From an uncultured Brevinematales bacterium (GTDB taxonomy: Bacteria; Spirochaetota; Brevinematia; Brevinematales; CAYRWR01), in contig CAZIAD010000001.1 in NCBI GenBank assembly GCA_964537555.1, positions 5,732 to 69,731 on the forward strand: a stretch of DNA of 64,000 nt. The letters run 5' to 3'. The notes under the pieces were generated by a model, which was given only the letters and a program-made list of their open reading frames with translations, did no database searches and was not told the origin of the DNA. A program made the position numbers and the translations under genes. Shown here one piece after another: positions 9,839 to 63,044 of the stretch (its first letter is position 1; every line of letters begins with the position of its first letter).

Positions 9839-9924
9839 GGATCACTCCTTGGATCTATTTGATTCCTAATACATCTATTATAACAGATATGATTAAAAAA
9901 AAACAGATTTCACGTTTAGTGGAT

Positions 9925-30563: not shown

Positions 30564-30956
30564 TCAAATATATTCTACTCTCAGGCCTTTTATATATCCA
30601 AAATGCCGGTCATGTGTGATTACGATAGATGCGGTCTGCATAGCATGGGCAGCTATCCATATATCATTGAGAGGAATGGGACGTCCATCTTTTTTTAGCT
30701 GGTCTTTGATGAGGGCAAAATACTCTGCAGTGACCATCCCTGCTTCCAGAATATTCACCCCAGGCTTATCCAAAAAGACTGCCAGATATTGTTTATTTAA
30801 TTCTTCTTTGGTCCCGCCTCTAAATCCGGCCAGCAATTCTGCCATCACAAAAATGGAGAAATGGATCCATTCAGACTGACTTATAATATCGAGTACCTTT
30901 GGATGGCCGGATAAAAATTCATCGTAGGCATTGGTATCCAGCAATATATTCTTCAT
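30564..30956 (-). CDS. vapC: PIN-domain toxin (VapC/FitB-like)
   Basis: 130 aa; 'ILLDTNAY' N-terminal acidic PIN motif, further conserved D residues. Confidence 0.75.
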   Translation of the reverse strand: MKNILLDTNAYDEFLSGHPKVLDIISQSEWIHFSIFVMAELLAGFRGGTKEELNKQYLAVFLDKPGVNILEAGMVTAEYFALIKDQLKKDGRPIPLNDIWIAAHAMQTASIVITHDRHFGYIKGLRVEYI

Positions 30957-31204
30957 TTCCAGTCCTGGGGATCGATCTGCGCGAAATCCTTAGTGTTTTT
31001 TCTAAATTGCTCCTGATCTTCTTTTGTCCAGACTCCAAACAGATCCATAAACTGTTCTTTACGGTCTGCATACTTATCCAGGTTCAAAGCCCGTCTTAAG
31101 ATCTCCTGAATAGTTTTATTGAGGCTTTTATGCTGATTATGAGCTATTTCCGTGATTTTTTGTTCCAGATTATCATCCATATTATGCAGGGTTATCGACT
31201 TCAT
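30953..31204 (-). CDS. vapB: ribbon-helix-helix antitoxin (VapB/FitA/StbC-like)
   Basis: 83 aa; 'ITLHNMDDNLEQKITEIAHNQHKSLNKTIQEILRRAL' RHH pattern; 4-nt overlap with vapC. Confidence 0.65.
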   Translation of the reverse strand: MKSITLHNMDDNLEQKITEIAHNQHKSLNKTIQEILRRALNLDKYADRKEQFMDLFGVWTKEDQEQFRKNTKDFAQIDPQDWK

Positions 31205-45001: not shown

Positions 45002-45913
45002 CTATTTTCTTAATTTTTCCAGATAATCTCTGAAATGGGGGGGTAATTCACACTCAAAGCTCATTTCCCGGCCTGTCACCGGATGAGTAAAACTGAGCCT
45101 GCGGGCACAGAGGGCCAGGCCTTTTTTAGGTGAACGGGAGTATATGGGGTCCCCTAATACCGGGAAGCCGAGATGGGAGAAATGTACCCGGATCTGGTGG
45201 GTACGGCCGGTATGAAGCCGGATCTCAATATAAGCATAGTGCTCGAAATACTCCAGCACTTTCCATTCAGTATGGGCTTCCTTGCCGTCTTCCCGCACCG
45301 CCATCTTTTTACGGTCATGGCGGGAACGGGCTATGGGCTCACGGATCTCCCCTTCCTGTTCGGGGTGTCCCATGACAATGGCTTCATAGTGCTTTTCTAT
45401 GGTACGCTCTTTAAAATCCCGGACCAGCTGCCGGTGGGCCTGGTCGGACAGGGCGATGATCATGAGTCCGGCAGTGTCCTTGTCCAGGCGGTGTACTATA
45501 CCGGGACGTTCCACCCCCCCGATGCCGGATAGCTGCCCCCCCAGGTGAAACAGCAGGGCGTGTACCAGGGTGTGGTCCCAGTTTCCCTGGGCCGGATGTA
45601 CCGCAAGGCCAGCCTGTTTGTTGATGACAGCGATGTGTTCATCCTGATAAAGGATATCCAGAGGAATGTCCCGGGGGCTGAGATCCAGTTCCTGCATGGG
45701 GTGCAGCTTCAGACTGACTTCCTCACCTGTCCTGGCTTTATGTGATAGTTTGGAAGAAGTGCCATTGACATAGAGGGTTTTTATCCGGGTCTTGAGTGAA
45801 GAACGGCTCAGCTCCGGATAGAGTTCAGGAATGATGATATCCAGCCGTTTTCCCGCAAAATCCGGAGATACAACAAAGGCTTTAAGATTATTCTGCTCAT
45901 TCAATCTCGTCAT
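45002..45913 (-). CDS. RluA-family pseudouridine synthase (RluD-like)
   Basis: 303 aa; S4-like N-terminus, catalytic 'HRLDKDTAGLM'. Confidence 0.85.
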   Translation of the reverse strand: MTRLNEQNNLKAFVVSPDFAGKRLDIIIPELYPELSRSSLKTRIKTLYVNGTSSKLSHKARTGEEVSLKLHPMQELDLSPRDIPLDILYQDEHIAVINKQAGLAVHPAQGNWDHTLVHALLFHLGGQLSGIGGVERPGIVHRLDKDTAGLMIIALSDQAHRQLVRDFKERTIEKHYEAIVMGHPEQEGEIREPIARSRHDRKKMAVREDGKEAHTEWKVLEYFEHYAYIEIRLHTGRTHQIRVHFSHLGFPVLGDPIYSRSPKKGLALCARRLSFTHPVTGREMSFECELPPHFRDYLEKLRK

Positions 45914-46454
45914 CCTCTGTGAGCATCAGTGTTTTAGGGTCTTTGCTCCAGTCAAATTGGGCGTATTTTTGCAGGGCTGCACCCTTCACACAATAATAGG
46001 TCTGCCACTCCCAGGTATCATAATAAAAATGCCATTCAGACTCATCACCGTCCAGGTACACTTCTATAGTCTGCTGTATATACTTTTCAGAGAGATCTCC
46101 ATTGATATTAGCATCCGGAAGAAGCTGCTCGATTTCCAGGCGCCACAATCCATTGTCCTCACTGGCCTCCACTATCCTGTATCCTACATTAGATACTGCC
46201 CTGCCCTGGAACCGGGGCTGATAATGTATCTCCTGGATCCGGTATTGTCCAACCTCCAGCTGATGGATGTATTTTTCTGCTTTTGCGGATCCATCTGTCT
46301 CCAGACCATCCTGCCACTTTCCCTGGATCGGGATATGACTGAGGATGGCCCATGATCCAATAAGTTCAGCAGGGAGGGATACTTTGAGGAGGGACCCCTG
46401 ACCACAGGAAGAGATTAAAAAAAACATTGATAATAATATACTTTTGTTTAGCAT
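45897..46454 (-). CDS. lipoprotein of unknown function
   Basis: 185 aa; signal peptide + lipobox ISSCGQ. Confidence 0.5.
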   Translation of the reverse strand: MLNKSILLSMFFLISSCGQGSLLKVSLPAELIGSWAILSHIPIQGKWQDGLETDGSAKAEKYIHQLEVGQYRIQEIHYQPRFQGRAVSNVGYRIVEASEDNGLWRLEIEQLLPDANINGDLSEKYIQQTIEVYLDGDESEWHFYYDTWEWQTYYCVKGAALQKYAQFDWSKDPKTLMLTEDDEIE

Positions 46455-47285: not shown

Positions 47286-47831
47286 CTATGGCTCCAGAAC
47301 TGGCCTTTTCACAGAAAATCCAATCAATAATTTAACCATAAATAAAGGGGCAAATGCATATAAGACCTGGACTTCGGCCTGCAGGTACAGGGACCCCAAT
47401 ACACCTAATACCAGCAGGGCAGCAGCCAGGACCTGCCTTTTTTCATTATCAGGAATGAAATGCAGAGCCACACCTCCCATCAGGGTAAGTGCCGCCACTC
47501 CTCCGATCAAAATCCAGGATGAAGGAAACACCCATATCACTACAGCAGGATGCAGAATGTGCAGTAACAGAAAGATTATCCTGATCCTTTCATTTTTCTG
47601 ATAATACTGATTAGTAGAACTGCTCAGATTGGCGATTACCCCTCCCGCAATATCGAAGAAAATAAATGAGACAATGATCCTTTTTATAAGAGATATACCG
47701 CTATTCTCCAGGGATAAAAATACCAGGAAAAATGCTATCAGCCCTATAAAATATACCAGTATTATATTAAACAGCGGACTATTCTCTCCATGCAGTTCCT
47801 GCAATGCTTTGGGGATCTTTATTGTCTTCAT
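47286..47831 (-). CDS. integral membrane protein of unknown function, translationally coupled to downstream ferredoxin
   Basis: 181 aa; 5-6 TM helices; stop/start abut at 47285/47286. Confidence 0.5.
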   Translation of the reverse strand: MKTIKIPKALQELHGENSPLFNIILVYFIGLIAFFLVFLSLENSGISLIKRIIVSFIFFDIAGGVIANLSSSTNQYYQKNERIRIIFLLLHILHPAVVIWVFPSSWILIGGVAALTLMGGVALHFIPDNEKRQVLAAALLVLGVLGSLYLQAEVQVLYAFAPLFMVKLLIGFSVKRPVLEP

Positions 47832-47997
47832 TAAATACTCCTGTATTGATGTCTAACCCACTTCTTACTATCATAACATACAAGGAATACTTTGTGAAAA
47901 TATTAAATATTTTTTCTCTGAATAGTACCTTCTTTCTATTGAGACTTTTCAGGGTATTGTCTATAATAAATAGGGGAAAAGAGATATTTTAAGGAAG

Positions 47998-50268
47998 ATG
48001 GTGTCTATGAAAAAAGAACCCGCCCAACAGTCATTCATCCGCAATGTAGTACTCAGCCTCAAGATGAAGATCACCGTGCTGGTAATGATTGTCCTGATAT
48101 TCACAACATATCTGGTAGTACGCTTCAATATCATTAATCAGTCAGCTGTGTTAAAACAACAGCAGCAGCAGACCATGAGTGGGTATTTGCTTCCCTTCAA
48201 ACAGAACATACTTAAACTATATCTCAATAAAAAAGAACAGGATTTTAAGACTCTGCAGACCTATGTCCGTTCATTCAAAGATATTCCTTCTTTTAAAATG
48301 GCAATGTTCGTAGATACTTATGGCACTATATTGTTCCATTCCGATTCCCGCAACATCGGCTTGAGGGTGCAGTCTTCTTCCCGCACCCTGTTTTATACCA
48401 ACTATTCTGAACAGATCCATTCCGATTTCCGTATTTACGAAGCAGAAATATCCACCTGGACCGACAAAAAAGGGAGAAAGCGGGCCTATACCAACGACCG
48501 TCCCGATAGTTATGATGGTTTTCTACCGGTTTATTCTGATTACGACAAACACCGCTGGTTTGGTGGCATCACTCAATATTATAATTATTTCAAAGAGGGT
48601 AATCTTTTTCACACTTCCAAACTCAATGAAGAAGTACTGAATAATTTCCGTTTTAGCAAGGCAATTGCTGATATTTACAATAGAATGTACACTGATGGAA
48701 AAATCTCGGAAACTGCCAAAAAACTCCTGGAAGAAAAAAAACTGGAGGAGACTGACCTTAAAAGGATAGAGTATTATTTCACCAAAGTGCAGGCTTATCA
48801 GGATCAGCTCTATAACCTCATCATCAGTGATAAATATTTTGAGGGACTGATGGAGACGCTATTTAAGGCAGGCATGCCCCTCAAGGAAACTGCCGACTAC
48901 ATCAAATGGAAAGAAAAGAAAAAGCTCTTTTCCAATAAAGACCTCATTAGCCCGGAACAAAAAAGAAATCTGAAATTTATTGTCTTCCTGGAACAGTTTA
49001 TTAAGCAGTATTATGATAAAAATGAGTTCACTCCCTCTTTTGAAGAATTTCAGACGCTGGTCAAAGAAAAAAATATCAATGTTCCCGCCGCTTATTATAA
49101 GGCCCGCATAAATAAACTGATCAAATCCCTGAGTTCTCTGGAAAAGTATCGCACGGATCTGAATGTCATACCTAAAGACCTGCTGGATTCCATATTCGCC
49201 GATATGTACGGATTCTACCGTTTAGGCACAGTGCGGGTTATTCTCAACCTGGAAGATATCGAACAGCAAAAACGCCATGTCTTTAATTCTACCATCGATA
49301 TAGCGGTCATGTTTATTCTGAGGATGCTGGTAGTAGTCTTCCTGATCGTAGCATTTATCATCGCTCCCCTCAATGACCTGGCTGCCGGAACAGATGAGAT
49401 AGCTCACGGCAATCTGGATAAAGCCATAGAGATACATACCCATGATGAGATCGGGCAGCTGGCGGATAAGTTTAATTATATGACCACCAGCCTTAAAAAA
49501 GCCTTTGATGAAGTCAAAGATAAGACCCGCATGGAAGAAGAACTGCGTATTGCCCAGGAGATACAGACGGCTATCCTGCCCCAGTCCTTACCGGAGCTGG
49601 ATGGCTATGACTTTGCCGTCTACTATGAGCCCCAGACCGAATCGGGAGGGGATTATTACGATTTTATCCCCCTGGATAATGACCTCTTTGCCATCGTGGT
49701 GGCAGATGTCACCAATCACGGAGTAGGGGCTGCCATGGTCATGTCTATCCTGCGATCGGCTCTGCGTACCTTCTCAGTCCGGGGTAAAAATGCAGCCCAG
49801 GTGATCAAAGATATCAATCCGGTGTTATTAAGAGATACTCCGGCTAACATGTTTGCCACTGTCTTCTATGGGGTGCTTAACCTGGAGACTAAAGAAATGT
49901 TTTATTCCATAGCAGGGCACAACCAGGGTATCGTGTTCGATGCCAAAAGTAAAAAGATCCGCCTCATGAAAGCGGGAGGTATGCCGGTAGGTATGCTCGC
50001 TTCTGAGATCTTTAACCCTCATATTGAACTCTATAAATCCCAGCTTAAATCAGGGGAATACTTTATCCAGTATTCAGACGGCATCACCGAGGCAAAATCA
50101 GCCAGTGACGAAGAATACGGGGAAGACCGCTTTTACCAGTCAATATTAAAGCATGTATCTGAAGACCTGGACGAGATGAAAAACAATATCATACAGGACG
50201 TAAAAGCCTTTACAGCCGGTGCATCACAAAGTGATGATATTACTCTCCTGATCATGAAACTACACTAA
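47998..50268 (+). CDS. membrane sensor with periplasmic domain, HAMP and PP2C/SpoIIE-type serine phosphatase (RsbU-like)
   Basis: 756 aa; two TM segments, HAMP 'IAPLNDLAAGTDEIAHGNLDKAIE', PP2C 'SGGDYYDF...VADVTNHGVGAAM'. Confidence 0.8.
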   Translation: MVSMKKEPAQQSFIRNVVLSLKMKITVLVMIVLIFTTYLVVRFNIINQSAVLKQQQQQTMSGYLLPFKQNILKLYLNKKEQDFKTLQTYVRSFKDIPSFKMAMFVDTYGTILFHSDSRNIGLRVQSSSRTLFYTNYSEQIHSDFRIYEAEISTWTDKKGRKRAYTNDRPDSYDGFLPVYSDYDKHRWFGGITQYYNYFKEGNLFHTSKLNEEVLNNFRFSKAIADIYNRMYTDGKISETAKKLLEEKKLEETDLKRIEYYFTKVQAYQDQLYNLIISDKYFEGLMETLFKAGMPLKETADYIKWKEKKKLFSNKDLISPEQKRNLKFIVFLEQFIKQYYDKNEFTPSFEEFQTLVKEKNINVPAAYYKARINKLIKSLSSLEKYRTDLNVIPKDLLDSIFADMYGFYRLGTVRVILNLEDIEQQKRHVFNSTIDIAVMFILRMLVVVFLIVAFIIAPLNDLAAGTDEIAHGNLDKAIEIHTHDEIGQLADKFNYMTTSLKKAFDEVKDKTRMEEELRIAQEIQTAILPQSLPELDGYDFAVYYEPQTESGGDYYDFIPLDNDLFAIVVADVTNHGVGAAMVMSILRSALRTFSVRGKNAAQVIKDINPVLLRDTPANMFATVFYGVLNLETKEMFYSIAGHNQGIVFDAKSKKIRLMKAGGMPVGMLASEIFNPHIELYKSQLKSGEYFIQYSDGITEAKSASDEEYGEDRFYQSILKHVSEDLDEMKNNIIQDVKAFTAGASQSDDITLLIMKLH

Positions 50269-50284
50269 ACAGGGAGTTTGAAAT

Positions 50285-51011
50285 ATGGCCAAAGTCAAAA
50301 TACTCCTTTATACCTGTGATCCGGATGTAGCCAAATCTTTTTCTCTGTCCCTCCCTCCTGAACAGTTTTCTCTTCAATGTGTAAGTGAGCTCCATGAAGT
50401 CATGGAAAAAGCTATGGAAGATATTCCCCAGTTCTGTATTTTTGATGAAAAAGAGACTAAAGGGGAGTGGGTGGATATCTCCCTATCTATGAGTGAGATC
50501 ATGGATCTCAGCCATGTGGAGAAACTACTGATCGCACGTAAAGAGATCACTCCAGGCCTGGTATCTCTGGCCGTCCAGGCGGGGATTTCAGAGATCATAC
50601 ACCGGGATATCGATCCTCTGATGCTGCTCCTTAAGATCGATGCCCTCCTGCTGAGACATGACCGATGCAAGTCCCTCATACAGACCCATCAGGACACAGC
50701 CGCTAAAAGGGTGGGTTATTCTGTAGAGCATTATGTAGGCCAGCCTCTCACTGCAGTCATGGGAGCTATACAGATGATCAATCTTATGAAAAACGAAGAT
50801 AAAAAAACTCAATGACCCGGAGATAGAGGAACTGGTTAAAATCGGACTCAAAGCTTCTGAGGAATTATCTAAGACTATTCATAAATTTGCCAGCCTCAAA
50901 AGTTTTAAGATCCAGGAACATATTAAGAACCACGACCTTATTGATCTGGAGCATCTGGATGAATCGGTCAATGAGGGTGATACAGAAATAGAAGACTTCG
51001 AGATGTTTTGA
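50285..51011 (+). pseudogene. receiver-like (REC) + HisKA/DHp-only phosphotransfer-type protein interrupted by a frameshift in an A7 tract (50801-50807)
   Basis: frame 1 (50285..50815) ends ...NLMKNEDKKTQ*; frame +1 continues LNDPEIEELVKIGLKASEELSKTIHKF...EDFEMF* to 51011; H-box-like 'VEHYVGQPLTAV'. Confidence 0.55.
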
Positions 51012-51078
51012 AGTAAAAGTATCATAAACAATAAAAAGCGCCCTCTTTTCAGAGAGCGCTTTTGTTTTTTTTGAGTTT

Positions 51079-52188
51079 TTATCTCCAGCTAATATCTGTA
51101 TGCCAGTCCTGTCCAAAATTATTTTCCCAGTCGCCGCTGTTATTTCTGAATGCAACATCAAATACGGAAGCATCTACACTGACAGTCACTGACTGGCTGT
51201 ATACCGCACTGACATAACCGTTATAGCGGAAGGGGTAGCACTGGGCTTCTGCCACATTCTGCCATCCGTTTACACCGTAGTGTGCCCAGACTGTATCACC
51301 CAGGTCGCCATTGGCGTAGCTGATACTGACAGTCTTGATGATATCACCGTTATAATTTTTGTAGGTGCTGTTAGGCTGCACTGTAACCAGGGGACGTACT
51401 GAGGTATGGAAGTCCTGTCCCTGGTTATTATCCCATATGCCGTTTCCGAAGATGGCAAAATCCAGGTATTCAGCATCTGTGGGGAGCTGGACTCTGGCGG
51501 TTGCATAGTCCGAAGCATAGCTGTAGGATGAATTAGTGATCCAGTCCATGGCTACGTCACTGACCTGGTTCCAGCTGTTCCAGCCGAAATGCAGCAGCAT
51601 ACCAGCTCCAGTAGAAGGCCCACTGTAGTTTATATAGATACCATCATTAATGCTGGTATGATAAGACTCAGAATATGAGTATGATACTATGGTGTCGTAC
51701 AAAAATGCGTTATATAACTGGCCTTCTTTGAGGTACTCTATACCATCACTGTCTACTACTTTCCAGAATATCTGTCCGGGAGCGTTGGCAGGAATACTGA
51801 TACGGGCATACCAGGAAGAATACACATTAGTGGCATTTACAGTCTGATTTACCGCATCAGCGCTAAAGCCGTATTTTACGACATAGCTCTTATTGGTATC
51901 TGAAGGGTAGATACTAAAAGAGTAGGTCTTTCCCTTTACTCCGCGATTATCAAACAGAGGGCCTCTTCCGGCTGAGTAGACGGTATTGGCTTCTACTACA
52001 GCATCACCTTCGGCCAGTCCCATGATCTGAAGTTCCTGTTCAGAAAAGAGGGGTATGGCAGCATTTACCGCAGGGTCATCGGTAGATATCACATTGATCA
52101 CTTTAACGTTATTTTCAGTATTATCCTGGTTCAGGCTACATGCACCTGCCAGAAGAGCAACCATCATCAACAACAAAACCTTTTTCAT
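51079..52188 (-). CDS. lipoprotein with CBM25/CBM26-like (starch-binding-type) repeats
   Basis: ORF 51079..52224; start at MKKVLLLMMVALLAGAC; repeated 'GNGIWDNNQGQDFHT' / 'NSGDWENNFGQDWHT' and 'HFGWNSWN' motifs. Confidence 0.5.
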   Translation of the reverse strand: MKKVLLLMMVALLAGACSLNQDNTENNVKVINVISTDDPAVNAAIPLFSEQELQIMGLAEGDAVVEANTVYSAGRGPLFDNRGVKGKTYSFSIYPSDTNKSYVVKYGFSADAVNQTVNATNVYSSWYARISIPANAPGQIFWKVVDSDGIEYLKEGQLYNAFLYDTIVSYSYSESYHTSINDGIYINYSGPSTGAGMLLHFGWNSWNQVSDVAMDWITNSSYSYASDYATARVQLPTDAEYLDFAIFGNGIWDNNQGQDFHTSVRPLVTVQPNSTYKNYNGDIIKTVSISYANGDLGDTVWAHYGVNGWQNVAEAQCYPFRYNGYVSAVYSQSVTVSVDASVFDVAFRNNSGDWENNFGQDWHTDISWR

Positions 52189-52389
52189 AATTTTCTCCTC
52201 GCATTTAATTAGTGCGCATTGCACTCATAATGTGCATTAGTATATTTTTTTTTGCGGATTAAGTCAAGAAAAATGAAATTTGTTTGTAAGCGCTTGCATC
52301 ATTAAATGCCTTTATCGAGAAGAAAGGGGCATACTTTCTTTTTTTCTGTTTTTAACTTAAAATATGGGACATTCCTGAAGGAGAGCAGT

Positions 52390-53928: not shown

Positions 53929-54165
53929 TTAAGGCAAGCCCGGAAAGCTATCCACATATTTGATCTTGAAATCACCGAAAGAATCCACGATCTGTATCTT
54001 GTAATCAGGAAAACTGTCTACTATCTCCCACTTCCCTACACTATCTGCAAATGCAGACACCTTTTGGACATGCAGGTCCGCAAAACTGTCTACTACCTCG
54101 ACTTTATAATCGGGAAAAGAATCTACAAATTGTATCTTTCCGTATATCCGGGATACATCCGCCAT
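53929..54165 (-). CDS. 78-aa protein made of six tandem 11-residue 'VDSF(P/A/G)D(Y/F)K(I/V)x(I/V)' repeats
   Basis: ORF 53929..54264, likely start at MADVSRIYGK just after the GGDEF stop; repeats VDSFPDYKVEV / VDSFADLHVQK / ... / VDSFGDFKIKY. Confidence 0.5.
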   Translation of the reverse strand: MADVSRIYGKIQFVDSFPDYKVEVVDSFADLHVQKVSAFADSVGKWEIVDSFPDYKIQIVDSFGDFKIKYVDSFPGLP

Positions 54166-54175
54166 CACATCCTCC

Positions 54176-55435
54176 TCAATTGACCTTAAATTCTCCGGTA
54201 TTGAGTACAAAGCGGTCCTTACCCAGGCGCTTGGCCTCATAGACCGCGTTATCGGCCAGCACAAGAATATCCTCGGTGCTCATCATCTCTTCAATCACTT
54301 TGTTATCCAGGTAGGCTCCCCCGAAGCTGCAGCTCACCTGTATGACTTCACCATTAAACACAAATTCCCGCCCATGGATGGCTTCCAGTATACGTTCCAT
54401 CATCCGGTATATATCCATATCGGGCGGACTGTATTCCACCAGGAGGAGAAATTCATCTCCCCCGAATCGGGCCAGGATATCACTTTTACGCAGCTGGTCC
54501 CGCACTGTCTTAATGAGCTCCTTGAGTATAAAATCCCCACAGACATGGCCATGTTCATCATTTATCTTTTTAAAATCATCTATATCAAATACCACCAGGT
54601 AGTGCCTCCCCGGCTCCCGGCGCAGCTTGGCCATCACTTTATTAAGCTCTATATCGAAATAGGACTTGGAAAAGGCCCCGGTGAGGGCATCATGGATGAG
54701 CTCATCATAGAGGCGGTGTACCGTATTATCCAGGTGCTCATAGCTGTTTAACAGCAGGATAGCCGCAGTGATGACAATACTCATACTGCCTATCCAGCTG
54801 ACCGGGGGCAGATCCAGTATTTTCATAGAGGTCAGGGCATCGATGCCCCCGCTGATCACCCAGAATATCGAAAAGATCAGAAGAATAAACACTGAGTTTT
54901 TATATTTTTTCTGTTTCCCGGGAATCCTCACATAGGTCACATAGAGGAAAAAGGCAGAATAGACCAGCAGGAAGAGCATAAAAATACCCCAGATCTTATG
55001 TACTATCCCTCTTTGCAGCGCCTTATAAAAGCTGGAGGTCTGCTCCAGAGGAGTGGTCAATATAAGAGGGTGGTCTATACATAGGATAATAGTAAACACG
55101 GTAGCAATGCTAAAAAATACCCTTATTGCGACTTTCTGTTTCAGGTCAAACATACTGTTCAAAAGCATAAAAAAGAAGACCACTACAAACATAGAAGCTA
55201 TCAATGTGGCCCGGTTCAGAATGTTGATAGCCCCTTCATTATCTCCCATATTAAGCAGGAGGCCAAACAAGACCATATAGATGGAATTACCGATCGTAAG
55301 GACGACGAACTTTCTAAAATGCTGCCTGGTATGTGAATCTTTCATGAATATAGTAAAAAAGACTATGGAGAATATTAAAAAGGTAAGCCCCACCACTCCG
55401 GCAATAAACATGGGAAGCGACACTAATGTAATCAA
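54176..55435 (-). CDS. diguanylate cyclase (GGDEF) with N-terminal multi-TM sensor domain
   Basis: 419 aa; about 7 TM helices; 'RFGGDEFLLL' GGDEF motif. Confidence 0.85.
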   Translation of the reverse strand: MITLVSLPMFIAGVVGLTFLIFSIVFFTIFMKDSHTRQHFRKFVVLTIGNSIYMVLFGLLLNMGDNEGAINILNRATLIASMFVVVFFFMLLNSMFDLKQKVAIRVFFSIATVFTIILCIDHPLILTTPLEQTSSFYKALQRGIVHKIWGIFMLFLLVYSAFFLYVTYVRIPGKQKKYKNSVFILLIFSIFWVISGGIDALTSMKILDLPPVSWIGSMSIVITAAILLLNSYEHLDNTVHRLYDELIHDALTGAFSKSYFDIELNKVMAKLRREPGRHYLVVFDIDDFKKINDEHGHVCGDFILKELIKTVRDQLRKSDILARFGGDEFLLLVEYSPPDMDIYRMMERILEAIHGREFVFNGEVIQVSCSFGGAYLDNKVIEEMMSTEDILVLADNAVYEAKRLGKDRFVLNTGEFKVN

Positions 55436-62549: not shown

Positions 62550-63044
62550 ATGGATAGAATTTTTGAATTAGTTTCTAAAGCTTATACAACTAATGAGTTA
62601 GATGCACTAGTAAATGGTCAAAAAAACTATGGTTTACAAACACCTTATATGTGTCCTGTAAAAGAACTTCCAACAGACTGGCAAAAATTATTAATAGAAG
62701 GGATTTATCCCTTCTATATGAATAGTGATAAGCAGATAAAAAATAAAATGGAAAAAATGTTACTCAGCAATATGGATTCAATATTGGGATTGTATTGCAC
62801 AATAAATTTGTTTTTCAGACAAATAATGAATGAGTCTTTTGGCAATTCCCCATTCATAATGGATAAAGAAGCTATCATACATGATATACCAATAAAAATA
62901 AAAATGTTTAAAAGTGACTTGAAAAAAGATTTTCGATGGATGGGCGAGCATTTAGCCCAAGGACTTTATGATGAAATTCAAAGGATGATTTCAATTCTTA
63001 ATACTGATTTTAAAGTTAAATTAAGTAATACGCTAGATAACTAG
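62550..63044 (+). CDS. hypothetical protein (helical, no recognisable motif) in AT-rich island
   Basis: 164 aa; GC about 28%; SD ggaagag before ATG. Confidence 0.6.
   Translation: MDRIFELVSKAYTTNELDALVNGQKNYGLQTPYMCPVKELPTDWQKLLIEGIYPFYMNSDKQIKNKMEKMLLSNMDSILGLYCTINLFFRQIMNESFGNSPFIMDKEAIIHDIPIKIKMFKSDLKKDFRWMGEHLAQGLYDEIQRMISILNTDFKVKLSNTLDN

What the first reader, a model, noticed from the sequence alone, without database searches (positions are those of the whole stretch)
47998..51011. HAMP-PP2C sensor phosphatase followed by a REC-DHp gene split by a +1 frameshift in an A7 homopolymer
Downstream of an RsbU-like membrane phosphatase, a gene encodes a degenerate receiver domain followed by a HisKA/DHp-like helix (VEHYVGQPLTAV with the phosphorylatable His). 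It has no ATPase domain, giving a phosphotransfer-protein-like or anti-kinase-like architecture. The reading frame breaks inside the DHp domain at aaaaaaa (50801-50807); removing one A restores a 241-aa ORF (…NEDKKT|LNDPEIEELVKIGLK…EDFEMF). The break could be a sequencing error, a recent pseudogenisation or slipped-strand phase variation of a signalling component. Pairing a PP2C phosphatase with a kinase-less REC-DHp protein is not a textbook partner-switching arrangement.
Basis: seen in the sequence. Interest (0 to 1): 0.6.

Follow-up and report, generated by a model that had tools for sequence, protein, structure and literature searches.

The report
Frameshifted receiver-DHp gene beside sensor phosphatase
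A small signalling gene next to a membrane sensor phosphatase in an uncultured spirochaete (Brevinematales) is cut short by one extra A in a run of seven; this is most likely an ordinary, very recent gene-inactivating mutation, in a little-studied but conserved gene pairing.

Summary
A HAMP-PP2C (SpoIIE-type) membrane phosphatase gene is followed 17 bp later by a gene that stops at TGA 50813-15, just after A7 (50801-50807). Deleting one A gives a 241-aa protein.

- Orthologs: two Brevinematales orthologs (66% and 57% identity, 238 aa) are intact and colinear across the break. They have A5 or no A-run there, so the window carries a 1-bp insertion.
- Not an obvious assembly error: three independent single-run assemblies match the window exactly, including A7. 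An A8 and an A7 in the neighbouring PP2C gene are in frame. No other gene in the 64 kb looks broken.
- Recent: the out-of-frame tail has no further lesions and no excess amino-acid divergence. It keeps a C-terminal F that is invariant in the clade.
- Architecture: the protein belongs to a family of about 30 clusters, REC + HisKA/DHp without an ATPase domain. Its closest solved fold is Leptospira LvrB minus the catalytic domain.
- Context: a PP2C gene lies directly upstream in 7 of the 9 REC-DHp loci whose upstream DNA is held, and a hybrid histidine kinase precedes the PP2C in 4. Four other PP2C loci lack the gene.
- Recoding: there is no evidence for programmed recoding or phase variation.

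Verdict: a recent pseudogenising indel in an uncharacterised accessory signalling partner. Interest is modest.

The parts
47939..47967 (+). Sigma-70-like promoter candidate (TTGAGA-17-TATAAT, 11/12) upstream of the two-gene operon
   Evidence: Consensus scan. A pattern match only.
48007..50268 (+). Sensor PP2C phosphatase gene (753 aa from ATG 48007; the ORF is also open from ATG 47998). It has two TM helices flanking a ~380-aa extracytoplasmic domain, then HAMP (49345-49497), then a SpoIIE/PP2C domain (49684-50262). The gene is intact.
   Evidence: Pfam HAMP 6e-13 and SpoIIE 2.9e-44. Full-length orthologs at 58-66% and 45% identity. The motifs GDYYD, DVTNHG, DGITE and DDITLL are visible in the translation. 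The SD sequence AAGGAAG lies at 47991-97.
50285..50815 (+). 5' part of the REC-DHp gene in frame 0 (176 aa, ending at TGA 50813-15). It comprises a divergent receiver (codons 1-110; D54 = 50444-46), a signalling helix running into DHp helix 1 (codons 111-170; H149 = 50729-31), and the start of the hairpin loop.
   Evidence: The identical 176-aa product is called on three independent Logan contigs.
50801..50807 (+). A7 homopolymer carrying the 1-bp insertion relative to orthologs. The likely ancestral sequence is GAT AAA AAA CTC (A6).
   Evidence: DNA alignment A1: the ortholog reads GGTAAAAATA-TCAAT. No ortholog has a run longer than A5 at this position.
50808..51011 (+). 3' remainder of the gene in the +1 frame (67 codons plus TGA). 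It encodes DHp helix 2, a small beta-hairpin (YI.NHDLIDL), and an acidic tail ending in the clade-invariant ...FEMF. It has no in-frame start codon of its own except the penultimate ATG.
   Evidence: dN is not elevated.
51034..51063 (.). GC-rich hairpin flanked by A-run and T-run: a likely bidirectional terminator shared with the convergent CBM53-like gene (51079-52224, -)
   Evidence: Terminator scan and the sequence itself.

Best explanation
The locus is a two-gene operon in an uncultured Brevinematales (Spirochaetota) bacterium.

Gene 1 is an intact membrane sensor phosphatase. It has a periplasmic domain, a HAMP domain and a PP2C/SpoIIE domain.

Gene 2 belongs to a small family of ~220-250-aa cytoplasmic proteins built from three parts:
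- a receiver (REC) domain;
- a 42-residue (six-heptad) signalling helix continuous with REC alpha5;
- a HisKA-type DHp helical hairpin bearing the conserved phospho-acceptor His.
The family has no catalytic ATPase domain. It is in effect a Rec-controlled histidine kinase of the LvrB type without its kinase domain.

In this genome gene 2 carries a genuine and evolutionarily very recent 1-bp insertion (A6 to A7) in the loop of the DHp hairpin. Translation stops two codons later. The 176-aa product keeps REC, D54 and H149. It lacks DHp helix 2, the C-terminal beta-hairpin and the conserved hydrophobic C-terminal tail, so the four-helix bundle cannot form. The gene is therefore most likely a nascent pseudogene.

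Inferred function of the intact protein (not shown): it is a dimeric phospho-relay or adaptor subunit. It would take a phosphoryl group from the receiver of a hybrid histidine kinase onto H149, as Spo0B and ChpT do, and/or it would be switched through its own D54. It would then regulate or dock onto the neighbouring PP2C. This would be the trans equivalent of the REC domains fused to PP2C in RsbY and HsbR.

Its loss here fits a pattern. The kinase and binding-protein genes are already absent from this locus, and several related lineages have lost the REC-DHp gene between the PP2C gene and guaA altogether.
For: Shown:
1. The insertion is real relative to orthologs. P0002 and P0003 (238 aa) align colinearly over all 241 residues, and the DNA alignment places a single extra base in the A-run.
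2. The A7 sequence is reproducible. Logan contigs from three separate runs (SRR13617028, SRR13617032, SRR13617041) are 100% identical to the window over 2.1-3.4 kb, including A7. The related MAG carries SPAdes-style NODE_ contig names, which suggests short-read data (inference).
3. Homopolymers are not generally miscalled. The A8 at 48734 and the A7 at 49067 in the adjacent PP2C gene are in frame. The other overlapping same-strand ORF pairs in the window are separate genes.
4. No intact allele exists in the databases.
5. The event is recent. The +1-frame tail has no further stops or indels. Its dN to the orthologs (0.27 and 0.31) does not exceed the dN between the two intact orthologs (0.34). 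The gene's branch-length ratio (1.73) lies within the range of neighbouring genes (1.1-2.5). The clade-invariant terminal F is retained.
6. The architecture is supported. 25 of 28 family members hit HisKA and 24 of 28 hit Response_reg, and none hits HATPase_c. The AF2 model has pLDDT 89, with the break in loop 171-177. The Foldseek top hit is LvrB, 8vc9. The distance from the K109-equivalent residue to the His is 42 residues in 20 of 28 members, and 49 or 63 in two more. This matches the heptad rule reported for Rec-HKs (PMC13269768).
7. Genomic context. The PP2C gene lies immediately upstream in the window and in L004, L009, L013, L015, L019 and L020. A hybrid HK precedes the PP2C in L013, L015, L019 and L020.
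8. The gene is dispensable over evolution. PP2C-guaA loci L022, L023 and L025 lack any REC-DHp gene or remnant, and so does the PP2C locus L024, where guaA is not adjacent.
Against: - Raw reads could not be inspected, so minority A6 alleles or a systematic platform error cannot be excluded.
- The perfect preservation of the downstream frame is also what a sequencing error, or an expressed recoded gene, would produce.
- The three runs come from one project and may sample one clonal population.
- The functional model (phospho-relay to or regulation of the PP2C) rests only on gene order and domain logic.
- The receiver in this clade lacks the conserved T/S (A84), has R in place of K109, and keeps only one of the acidic pair. 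It may not be phosphorylatable.
- PP2C orthologs clearly work without this partner in some lineages.
Confidence: 0.65

Rival explanations
1. Sequencing or assembly error: the true genome has A6 and the gene is intact.
For: The downstream frame is perfectly preserved. Homopolymers are the commonest site of indel miscalls.
Against: Four assemblies (the MAG plus three single-run Logan assemblies) all give A7 with 100% identity. The A8 and A7 runs in the adjacent gene are in frame. No other gene in the 64 kb looks broken. SPAdes-style contig naming in the project suggests Illumina data (inference).
Confidence: 0.12
2. Slipped-strand phase variation: the A-tract toggles A6/A7 in the population and switches the signalling partner ON and OFF.
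For: The mutation lies in a homopolymer, and the gene downstream of it is otherwise intact. A/T runs of 7 or more are over-represented in this window (48 observed against 14.7 expected).
Against: The tract is only 7 nt and sits in the last third of the gene. It is lineage-specific, with orthologs having A5 or less. All three samples show A7, and no A6-derived 241-aa protein exists in the collection. The contigs run through the site without breaking there.
Confidence: 0.08
3. Functional recoding: full-length protein is made from the A7 template. The route would be either transcriptional slippage (loss of one A in the mRNA) or +1 ribosomal slippage of tRNA-Lys on AAA-AAA-A. The result would be two products, of 176 and 241 aa.
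For: tRNA-Lys can re-pair perfectly after a +1 shift on A7, and the product would be exactly colinear with the orthologs. Rescue of frameshifted genes at A-runs is documented, for example at A11 in Citrobacter tssM (PMC4256274). Such genes need not be dead (PMC1088944).
Against: Selection against slippage-prone runs usually becomes evident at 9 A/T, and at 8 in some genomes (PMC1088944); this run is 7. The site is not conserved in any ortholog. The 0-frame A-site codon is an ordinary ACU, the stop lies two codons away, and no SD-like element precedes the site. The downstream RNA folds no better than shuffled sequence (z = +0.97).
Confidence: 0.05
4. The truncated 176-aa protein (REC plus a single long helix with H149) is itself the selected, functional form. 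It might act, for example, as a coiled-coil dimeric single-domain regulator or as a dominant-negative partner.
For: The N-terminal ORF, its RBS and both conserved phospho-sites (D54 and H149) are intact.
Against: All of the 28 aligned full-length family members are 215-257 aa and carry helix 2. The untranslated tail shows no decay, which implies it was under selection until very recently. A DHp helix 1 without helix 2 exposes the hydrophobic bundle core (inference from the model).
Confidence: 0.05

Closest known systems
LvrB of Leptospira (Rec-controlled histidine kinase, REC-DHp-CA; PDB 8vc9; PMC13269768)
   Same: - It has an N-terminal receiver whose alpha5 continues as a coiled-coil signalling helix into a HisKA-type DHp hairpin with the phospho-acceptor His.
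- The linker length is a multiple of seven (42 residues here).
- It is the best Foldseek match over ~230 aligned columns.
- NCBIfam LvrA/Lvr-type models give partial hits to family members.
   Different: - The present family has no CA/HATPase_c domain, so it cannot autophosphorylate.
- The receiver in this clade lacks the conserved T/S and K.
- The H-box reads H-Y-x-G-Q-P-L-T rather than H-E-x-x-T/N-P.
- The family carries an extra beta-hairpin and a hydrophobic C-terminal tail.
- Sequence identity is only ~14%.
Spo0B (Bacillus) and ChpT (Caulobacter): DHp-type histidine phosphotransferases without kinase activity
   Same: Each is a kinase-less protein whose His lies on helix 1 of a DHp-like helical hairpin and relays phosphoryl groups between receiver domains. 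In four related loci the gene lies one gene beyond a hybrid HK (the PP2C gene lies between them); a hybrid HK needs such a relay. This comparison rests on established knowledge of those proteins plus gene context.
   Different: Spo0B and ChpT carry a C-terminal pseudo-CA alpha/beta domain and have no N-terminal receiver. No sequence similarity to them was detected here. Phosphotransfer is untested.
REC-HisKA response regulators lacking HATPase (for example Archaeoglobus AF_1472), noted by Galperin et al. 2018 (PMC5847659)
   Same: They share the domain logic: REC plus a dimerising HisKA domain with a conserved His and no ATPase. They are explicitly described as experimentally unstudied, with unknown partners.
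   Different: The archaeal examples usually include PAS or GAF domains. The present bacterial family is a minimal REC-helix-DHp. In the Brevinematales clade it is genetically linked to a PP2C phosphatase.
REC-regulated PP2C phosphatases in partner-switching pathways (B. cereus RsbK-RsbY; P. aeruginosa HptB-HsbR-HsbA; RssB-type)
   Same: They link a hybrid histidine kinase, a receiver domain and a PP2C phosphatase in one pathway. The conserved gene order hybrid HK - PP2C - REC-DHp suggests the same logic. The comparison is from established knowledge.
   Different: In those systems the REC is fused to the PP2C, and the substrate is a STAS anti-anti-sigma protein encoded nearby. Here the REC is on a separate DHp protein, the PP2C is a membrane HAMP sensor, and no STAS or anti-sigma gene lies within ~10 kb.
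SiaA (HAMP-PP2C biofilm regulator of Pseudomonas)
   Same: It has the same membrane-HAMP-PP2C architecture and is the best NCBIfam hit for the phosphatase.
   Different: The score is 74 bits against a 700-bit cutoff and covers only the HAMP and PP2C parts. No SiaB/C/D-like neighbours are present. The phosphatase is not an ortholog of SiaA.

Membership tests
Receiver domain (REC, PF00072) | (beta-alpha)5 CheY-like fold | tested here: met
   The AF2 model of ortholog P0002 (pLDDT 89) shows five strand-helix units over residues 4-110. Foldseek matches receiver domains with probability 1.0, for example DivK (target-normalised TM 0.86, rmsd 2.2 A).
Receiver domain (REC, PF00072) | Phospho-acceptor Asp at the end of beta3 | tested here: met
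   D54 (50444-46) is present in 26 of the 28 family members aligned.
Receiver domain (REC, PF00072) | Acidic pair after beta1, conserved T/S (T87) and K (K109) | tested here: not met
   Only D12 remains of the acidic pair. T/S is replaced by A84 and K by R107 in the window protein and in P0002; P0003 has V at the T/S position. Canonical residues are present in distant members.
Receiver domain (REC, PF00072) | Pfam score above the gathering threshold | tested here: not met
   There is no Response_reg hit for the window protein or for P0002. 24 of 28 relatives match at E<=0.01 (best 7e-32); L019's copy (38.3 bits) passes the 30.2-bit cutoff and L020's (24.4 bits) does not.
HisKA / DHp domain (PF00512) | Conserved His in an H-box on helix 1 of a helical hairpin | tested here: met
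   H149 in SVEHYVGQPLTAV is present in 27 of the 28 aligned members. The model shows helices 111-170 and 178-202 joined by loop 171-177.
HisKA / DHp domain (PF00512) | Pfam score above the gathering threshold (26.9 bits) | tested here: not met
   The repaired window protein scores 18.4 bits and P0002 scores 22.4 bits. 25 of 28 family members hit HisKA, the best at E 9.7e-12.
HisKA / DHp domain (PF00512) | Homodimeric four-helix bundle | not testable with these tools
   Only monomer prediction is available.
Histidine kinase (Rec-controlled HK, LvrB type) | CA / HATPase_c ATP-binding domain after the DHp | tested here: not met
   No HATPase_c hit in any of the 28 members. All proteins end 60-90 residues after the His.
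Histidine kinase (Rec-controlled HK, LvrB type) | REC-to-H-box linker in multiples of seven residues | tested here: met
   The linker is 42 residues in 20 of 28 members, and 49 and 63 in two more. The rule is as stated in PMC13269768.
Spo0B/ChpT-type histidine phosphotransferase | Phosphoryl relay between two receiver domains via the DHp His | not testable with these tools
   Only context supports this: a hybrid HK lies upstream in L013, L015, L019 and L020.
Spo0B/ChpT-type histidine phosphotransferase | C-terminal pseudo-CA alpha/beta domain | tested here: not met
   After helix 2 the model shows only a two-strand hairpin and a disordered tail.
PP2C / SpoIIE phosphatase (PF07228), RsbU type | Pfam domain above threshold with metal-binding Asp motifs | tested here: met
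   SpoIIE scores 151.8 bits against a cutoff of 25. The motifs GDYYD, DVTNHG, DGITE and DDITLL are visible in the translation.
PP2C / SpoIIE phosphatase (PF07228), RsbU type | STAS (RsbV/SpoIIAA-like) substrate and anti-sigma kinase encoded nearby | tested here: not met
   No STAS or RsbW-like genes lie within ~10 kb in the window, L004, L009, L013 or L015. ORFs under ~100 aa in the window were not all scanned.
Programmed frameshift / transcriptional slippage site | Slippery tract conserved in orthologs, together with the split-ORF arrangement | tested here: not met
   Orthologs are single ORFs with A5 or less at the site.
Programmed frameshift / transcriptional slippage site | Tract length of 8-9 or more, or stimulatory elements (a pause/stop codon at the A-site, an upstream SD, downstream structure) | tested here: not met
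   The tract is only A7. The A-site codon is ACU. No SD-like element is present. The RNA fold gives z = +0.97. The length criterion comes from PMC1088944.
Phase-variable contingency locus | Tract-length polymorphism between or within samples | tested here: inconclusive
   Three run-level assemblies and the MAG all show A7, and no A6 product is in the collection.

The most novel reading that the evidence does not exclude
The hybrid HK - HAMP-PP2C - REC-DHp gene set of Brevinematales and relatives could be a previously undescribed signalling circuit.

In this reading, a kinase-less Rec-DHp protein bridges His-Asp phosphorelay and Ser/Thr-phosphatase signalling. It would accept phosphate on H149 like Spo0B or ChpT, and it would use its clade-specific C-terminal hydrophobic tail (phi-x-phi-F) to dock onto and gate the membrane PP2C. 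The PP2C would act without any STAS or anti-sigma partner.

In the window strain the A7 tract would then not be a dead end. It would act as a leaky or reversible valve, through slippage or phase variation, that sets the stoichiometry of this partner.
Probability: 0.1. Interest if true: 0.55.

Novelty: new variant of a known kind. Interest (0 to 1): 0.3.

Why it matters
The frameshift by itself is an ordinary early-stage pseudogene and matters little beyond annotation. The two pieces should be annotated as one disrupted gene, not as a 176-aa hypothetical protein.

The family it exposed is of more use. CA-less REC-DHp proteins are recognised in domain censuses, but none has been studied (PMC5847659). 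Here a clade of them shows three features:
- reproducible linkage to a sensor PP2C and a hybrid histidine kinase;
- the heptad-register linker of Rec-controlled kinases;
- a conserved C-terminal tail.

That gives a concrete and testable candidate for how His-Asp phosphorelays are wired to PP2C phosphatases without the usual STAS/anti-sigma partner-switching proteins. The natural presence/absence series also offers comparative material. It runs from intact genes, through this frameshifted copy, to replacement by an unrelated 90-aa protein and complete deletion.

Tried and rejected
- Programmed +1 frameshift or slippage. Rejected as the main reading. The tract is not conserved and is only A7 (criterion from PMC1088944). 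There is no pause codon or SD, and no downstream structure (z +0.97).
- General homopolymer miscalling in the assembly. I checked all same-strand overlapping or adjacent ORF pairs in the window. The suspicious ones are distinct genes: ilvB/ilvN, CvfB/PIN, and GGDEF/unknown.
- Long-standing relaxed selection on the gene. The three-taxon dN branch ratio is 1.73, against 1.1-2.5 for five neighbouring genes, so there is no gene-specific acceleration. dS is saturated, so dN/dS is uninformative.
- Independent translation of the C-terminal piece. There is no ATG, GTG or TTG in that frame before the penultimate codon.
- A STAS, anti-sigma or RsbW partner. None was found in the window or in orthologous loci.
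- A hybrid HK or binding protein elsewhere in the 64 kb. tblastn was negative.
- The 90-aa gene that replaces REC-DHp in L022 and L023 as a remnant of it. hhalign gives a probability of 0.3%, and tblastn finds no remnant.
- SiaA orthology of the PP2C. It scores 74 bits against a 700-bit cutoff.
- The first AF2 run, with 3 sequences, gave pLDDT 50 and was not used for fold search.
- A paper search for the SRA project returned nothing, so the habitat and sequencing platform remain unknown.
- The GTDB representative and JGI scans added only 1 and 3 loci.


Full report
OBSERVATION. The sequence is as described.

An ORF at 47998-50268 (+) encodes a protein with Pfam HAMP (residues 450-500) and SpoIIE/PP2C (563-755, E 2.9e-44). 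Two hydrophobic segments flank a ~380-residue N-terminal domain, so it is a membrane sensor phosphatase. The real start is probably ATG 48007: an AAGGAAG sequence lies 9 nt upstream, and the independent gene calls give 753 aa.

Seventeen bases after its stop, and behind an AGGGAG ribosome-binding site, a second ORF (50285-50815) encodes 176 aa and ends ...NEDKKTQ*. The A7 run is at 50801-50807. The frame reached by skipping one base is open from 50790 and runs to TGA at 51009-11. Removing one A gives a 241-aa protein. Pfam finds a weak HisKA match on it at residues 149-201, across the break, whereas the 176-aa product matches nothing. A promoter-like site (47939-67) and a bidirectional terminator hairpin (51034-63) bracket the two genes.

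IS THE BREAK REAL?

- the identical 176-aa truncated form (P0001);
- an intact 238-aa ortholog at 66% identity (P0002);
- an intact 238-aa ortholog at 57% identity (P0003).

Both orthologs align over the whole repaired protein with no gap at the break. In DNA the window has exactly one base more than they do, inside the A-run: window GATAAAAAAACTCAAT against ortholog GGTAAAAATA-TCAAT.

The truncated form is encoded on three Logan contigs assembled separately from three sequencing runs (SRR13617028, SRR13617032, SRR13617041). All three are 100% identical to the window over 2.1-3.4 kb, A7 included. The exact repaired protein is absent from the ~15-billion-sequence collection.

The adjacent PP2C gene contains an A8 and an A7 that are in frame. 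The other overlapping same-strand ORF pairs in the 64 kb turned out to be separate genes. A sister species in the same project carries SPAdes-style contig names, which suggests short-read data; this is an inference.

I therefore put assembly error at about 0.12. Read pile-ups, which I could not access, would settle it.

HOW OLD IS IT?

The out-of-frame tail has no further stop or indel. Its nonsynonymous distance to the orthologs (0.27 and 0.31) is no greater than the distance between the two intact orthologs (0.34). It also keeps the terminal Phe, which is invariant in the clade.

In a three-taxon comparison the window lineage has a long branch for every gene tested, with window/L004 ratios of 1.1-2.5. 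The REC-DHp gene, at 1.73, is not exceptional. So there is no sign of prolonged relaxed selection, and the insertion is recent.

WHAT IS THE PROTEIN?

An exhaustive HMMER search of 1.8 billion representatives with the ortholog profile found about 30 clusters. All but one multidomain protein (1031 aa) and two truncated entries (P0001 itself and a 140-aa fragment) are 215-257 aa and align end to end. Of 28 members, 24 match Response_reg, 25 match HisKA and none matches HATPase_c.

With this alignment AlphaFold2 gave a confident model (pLDDT 89):
- a (beta-alpha)5 receiver over residues 4-110;
- alpha5 continuing as one long helix, 111-170, that carries H149;
- a loop at 171-177;
- a second helix, 178-202;
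- a small beta-hairpin, 209-219;
- a disordered acidic tail.

The frameshift (codon 174/175) falls in the hairpin loop. The truncated product therefore lacks helix 2 and everything after it.

The best structural match in the PDB is Leptospira LvrB, the prototype Rec-controlled histidine kinase with a REC-DHp-CA architecture (PMC13269768). The distance from the K109-equivalent residue to the His is 42 residues in 20 of 28 members, and 49 or 63 in two more. This agrees with the heptad rule that paper reports for Rec-DHp linkers.

The family is thus a Rec-controlled kinase without the kinase domain. No NCBIfam model names it. Galperin et al. noted REC-HisKA proteins without HATPase in archaea and stated that none has been studied (PMC5847659).

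In the window's clade the receiver is degenerate. D54 is kept, but the conserved T/S is A84, K109 is R107, and only one residue of the acidic pair remains. The H-box reads H-Y-x-G-Q-P-L-T.

CONTEXT.

A PP2C gene lies immediately upstream of the REC-DHp gene in the window and in L004, L009, L013, L015, L019 and L020. The phosphatases are orthologous over their full length, sensor domain included: 45% identity to L015, and 58-66% to L009 and L004.

In L013, L015, L019 and L020 a hybrid histidine kinase (PAS-HisKA-HATPase-REC) precedes the phosphatase. In L013 and L015 a periplasmic binding protein precedes the kinase. The window, L004 and L009 lack these two genes at the locus, and the window has no homolog of them anywhere in its 64 kb.

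No STAS or anti-sigma gene lies within about 10 kb in the loci whose neighbours were annotated (window, L004, L009, L013, L015).

A C-terminal phi-x-phi-F tail is found only in the P0002-P0008 clade, which contains all the PP2C-linked members.

Conversely, about 18 clusters of PP2C orthologs exist, and not all have the partner:
- in L022 and L023 an unrelated 90-aa helical protein sits between the PP2C gene and guaA;
- in L025 guaA follows the PP2C gene directly;
- in L024 a different gene follows the PP2C gene.
None of these loci holds any REC-DHp remnant.

More distant REC-DHp members (L017, L018) have no PP2C neighbour. The REC-DHp gene is therefore an accessory partner of this phosphatase that has been lost repeatedly.

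MECHANISM.

Shown: the domain architecture, the position of the break, its recency, and the conserved gene order.

Inferred: the intact protein is a dimeric relay or adaptor.
- It would take phosphate from the receiver of a hybrid kinase onto H149, as the DHp-type phosphotransferases Spo0B and ChpT do, and/or be switched through D54 and the coiled-coil linker as in LvrB.
- It would act on the neighbouring PP2C, possibly through the C-terminal tail. This would parallel the cis REC-PP2C fusions RsbY and HsbR.
- In the window strain the 1-bp insertion removes half of the four-helix bundle and the tail. The gene is most likely non-functional, a first step toward the loss already seen in related lineages.

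RIVALS.

- Phase variation (0.08). The tract is short, lies in the last third of the gene and is lineage-specific. No A6 allele is seen.
- Functional recoding (0.05). tRNA-Lys could re-pair after a +1 shift on A7, and A-run slippage can rescue genes (PMC4256274). However, selection against slippage-prone runs is typically evident at 9 nt, or 8 in some genomes (PMC1088944). There is also no pause codon, no SD-like element and no downstream structure (z +0.97).
- A selected truncated form (0.05). No family member of that shape exists.
- Assembly error (0.12), as discussed above.

VERDICT.

The most likely cause is a recent genuine inactivating insertion, which is an ordinary event.

The mildly novel part is the family and its linkage: a CA-less Rec-DHp protein genetically coupled to a sensor PP2C, often with a hybrid kinase, and without STAS or anti-sigma partners. 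I rate this a new variant of known two-component and PP2C signalling, interest about 0.3.

Noticed in passing
window 53929-54264 (-): A 111-aa ORF consists largely of tandem VDSF(P/A/G)D(Y/F/L)K-type repeats (...VDSFPDYKVEVVDSFADLHVQKV...VDSFPDYKIQIVDSFGDFKIKYVDSFPG). It has no Pfam hit. Its 5' end overlaps the 3' end of the GGDEF gene upstream of it on the minus strand (54176-55435) by 89 nt.
   Followed up: no
window 45897-46454 (-) versus L004 4455-6110 and L009 5167-6891: Between the RluD-like pseudouridine synthase gene and the neighbouring genes, the window has a 185-aa lipoprotein-like ORF with no Pfam hit. Both orthologous loci carry a 551-574-aa GGDEF diguanylate cyclase gene in that position. 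This is a second signalling-gene difference at the same locus.
   Followed up: partly
L022 4153-4683 and L023 4245-4772 (-), upstream of the PP2C orthologs: In two Mb-scale Brevinematales contigs the PP2C ortholog is preceded by a divergently transcribed H-NOX (HNOB) gene and followed by a conserved 90-aa helical protein of unknown function. At the corresponding upstream position the window has a 181-aa multi-TM protein with no Pfam hit (47286-47831), which is conserved in L004 and L009.
   Followed up: partly
whole window; A9 runs at 9895-9903 (+) and 52245-52253 (-): Runs of 7 or more A/T are about three times more frequent than in dinucleotide shuffles (48 observed against 14.7 expected). 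The two 9-nt runs both fall between the long ORFs; several 8-nt runs lie inside them.
   Followed up: partly
window 30564-30989 (-) and 62550-63044 (+): A PIN-domain (toxin-like) gene lies next to the CvfB-like gene. An ORF matching the 'Immunity factor for SPN' family (IFS, E 2e-7) lies near the window end. Either could be part of a toxin/immunity pair.
   Followed up: no
L001-L003 versus L005-L006 (the same SRA runs): The window species (frameshifted gene) and a sister Brevinematales species (66% aa identity for the REC-DHp protein, intact gene) co-occur in the same samples, SRR13617028 and SRR13617032. Both loci have the same gene order from the PP2C gene through REC-DHp and the convergent CBM53-like gene to guaA.
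   Followed up: partly
L025 3732-4602 (-): An amino-acid kinase gene is split into 218-aa and 88-aa calls on a 743-kb contig. This is probably a frameshift artefact or pseudogene in that long-contig assembly. It is unrelated to the window.
   Followed up: no
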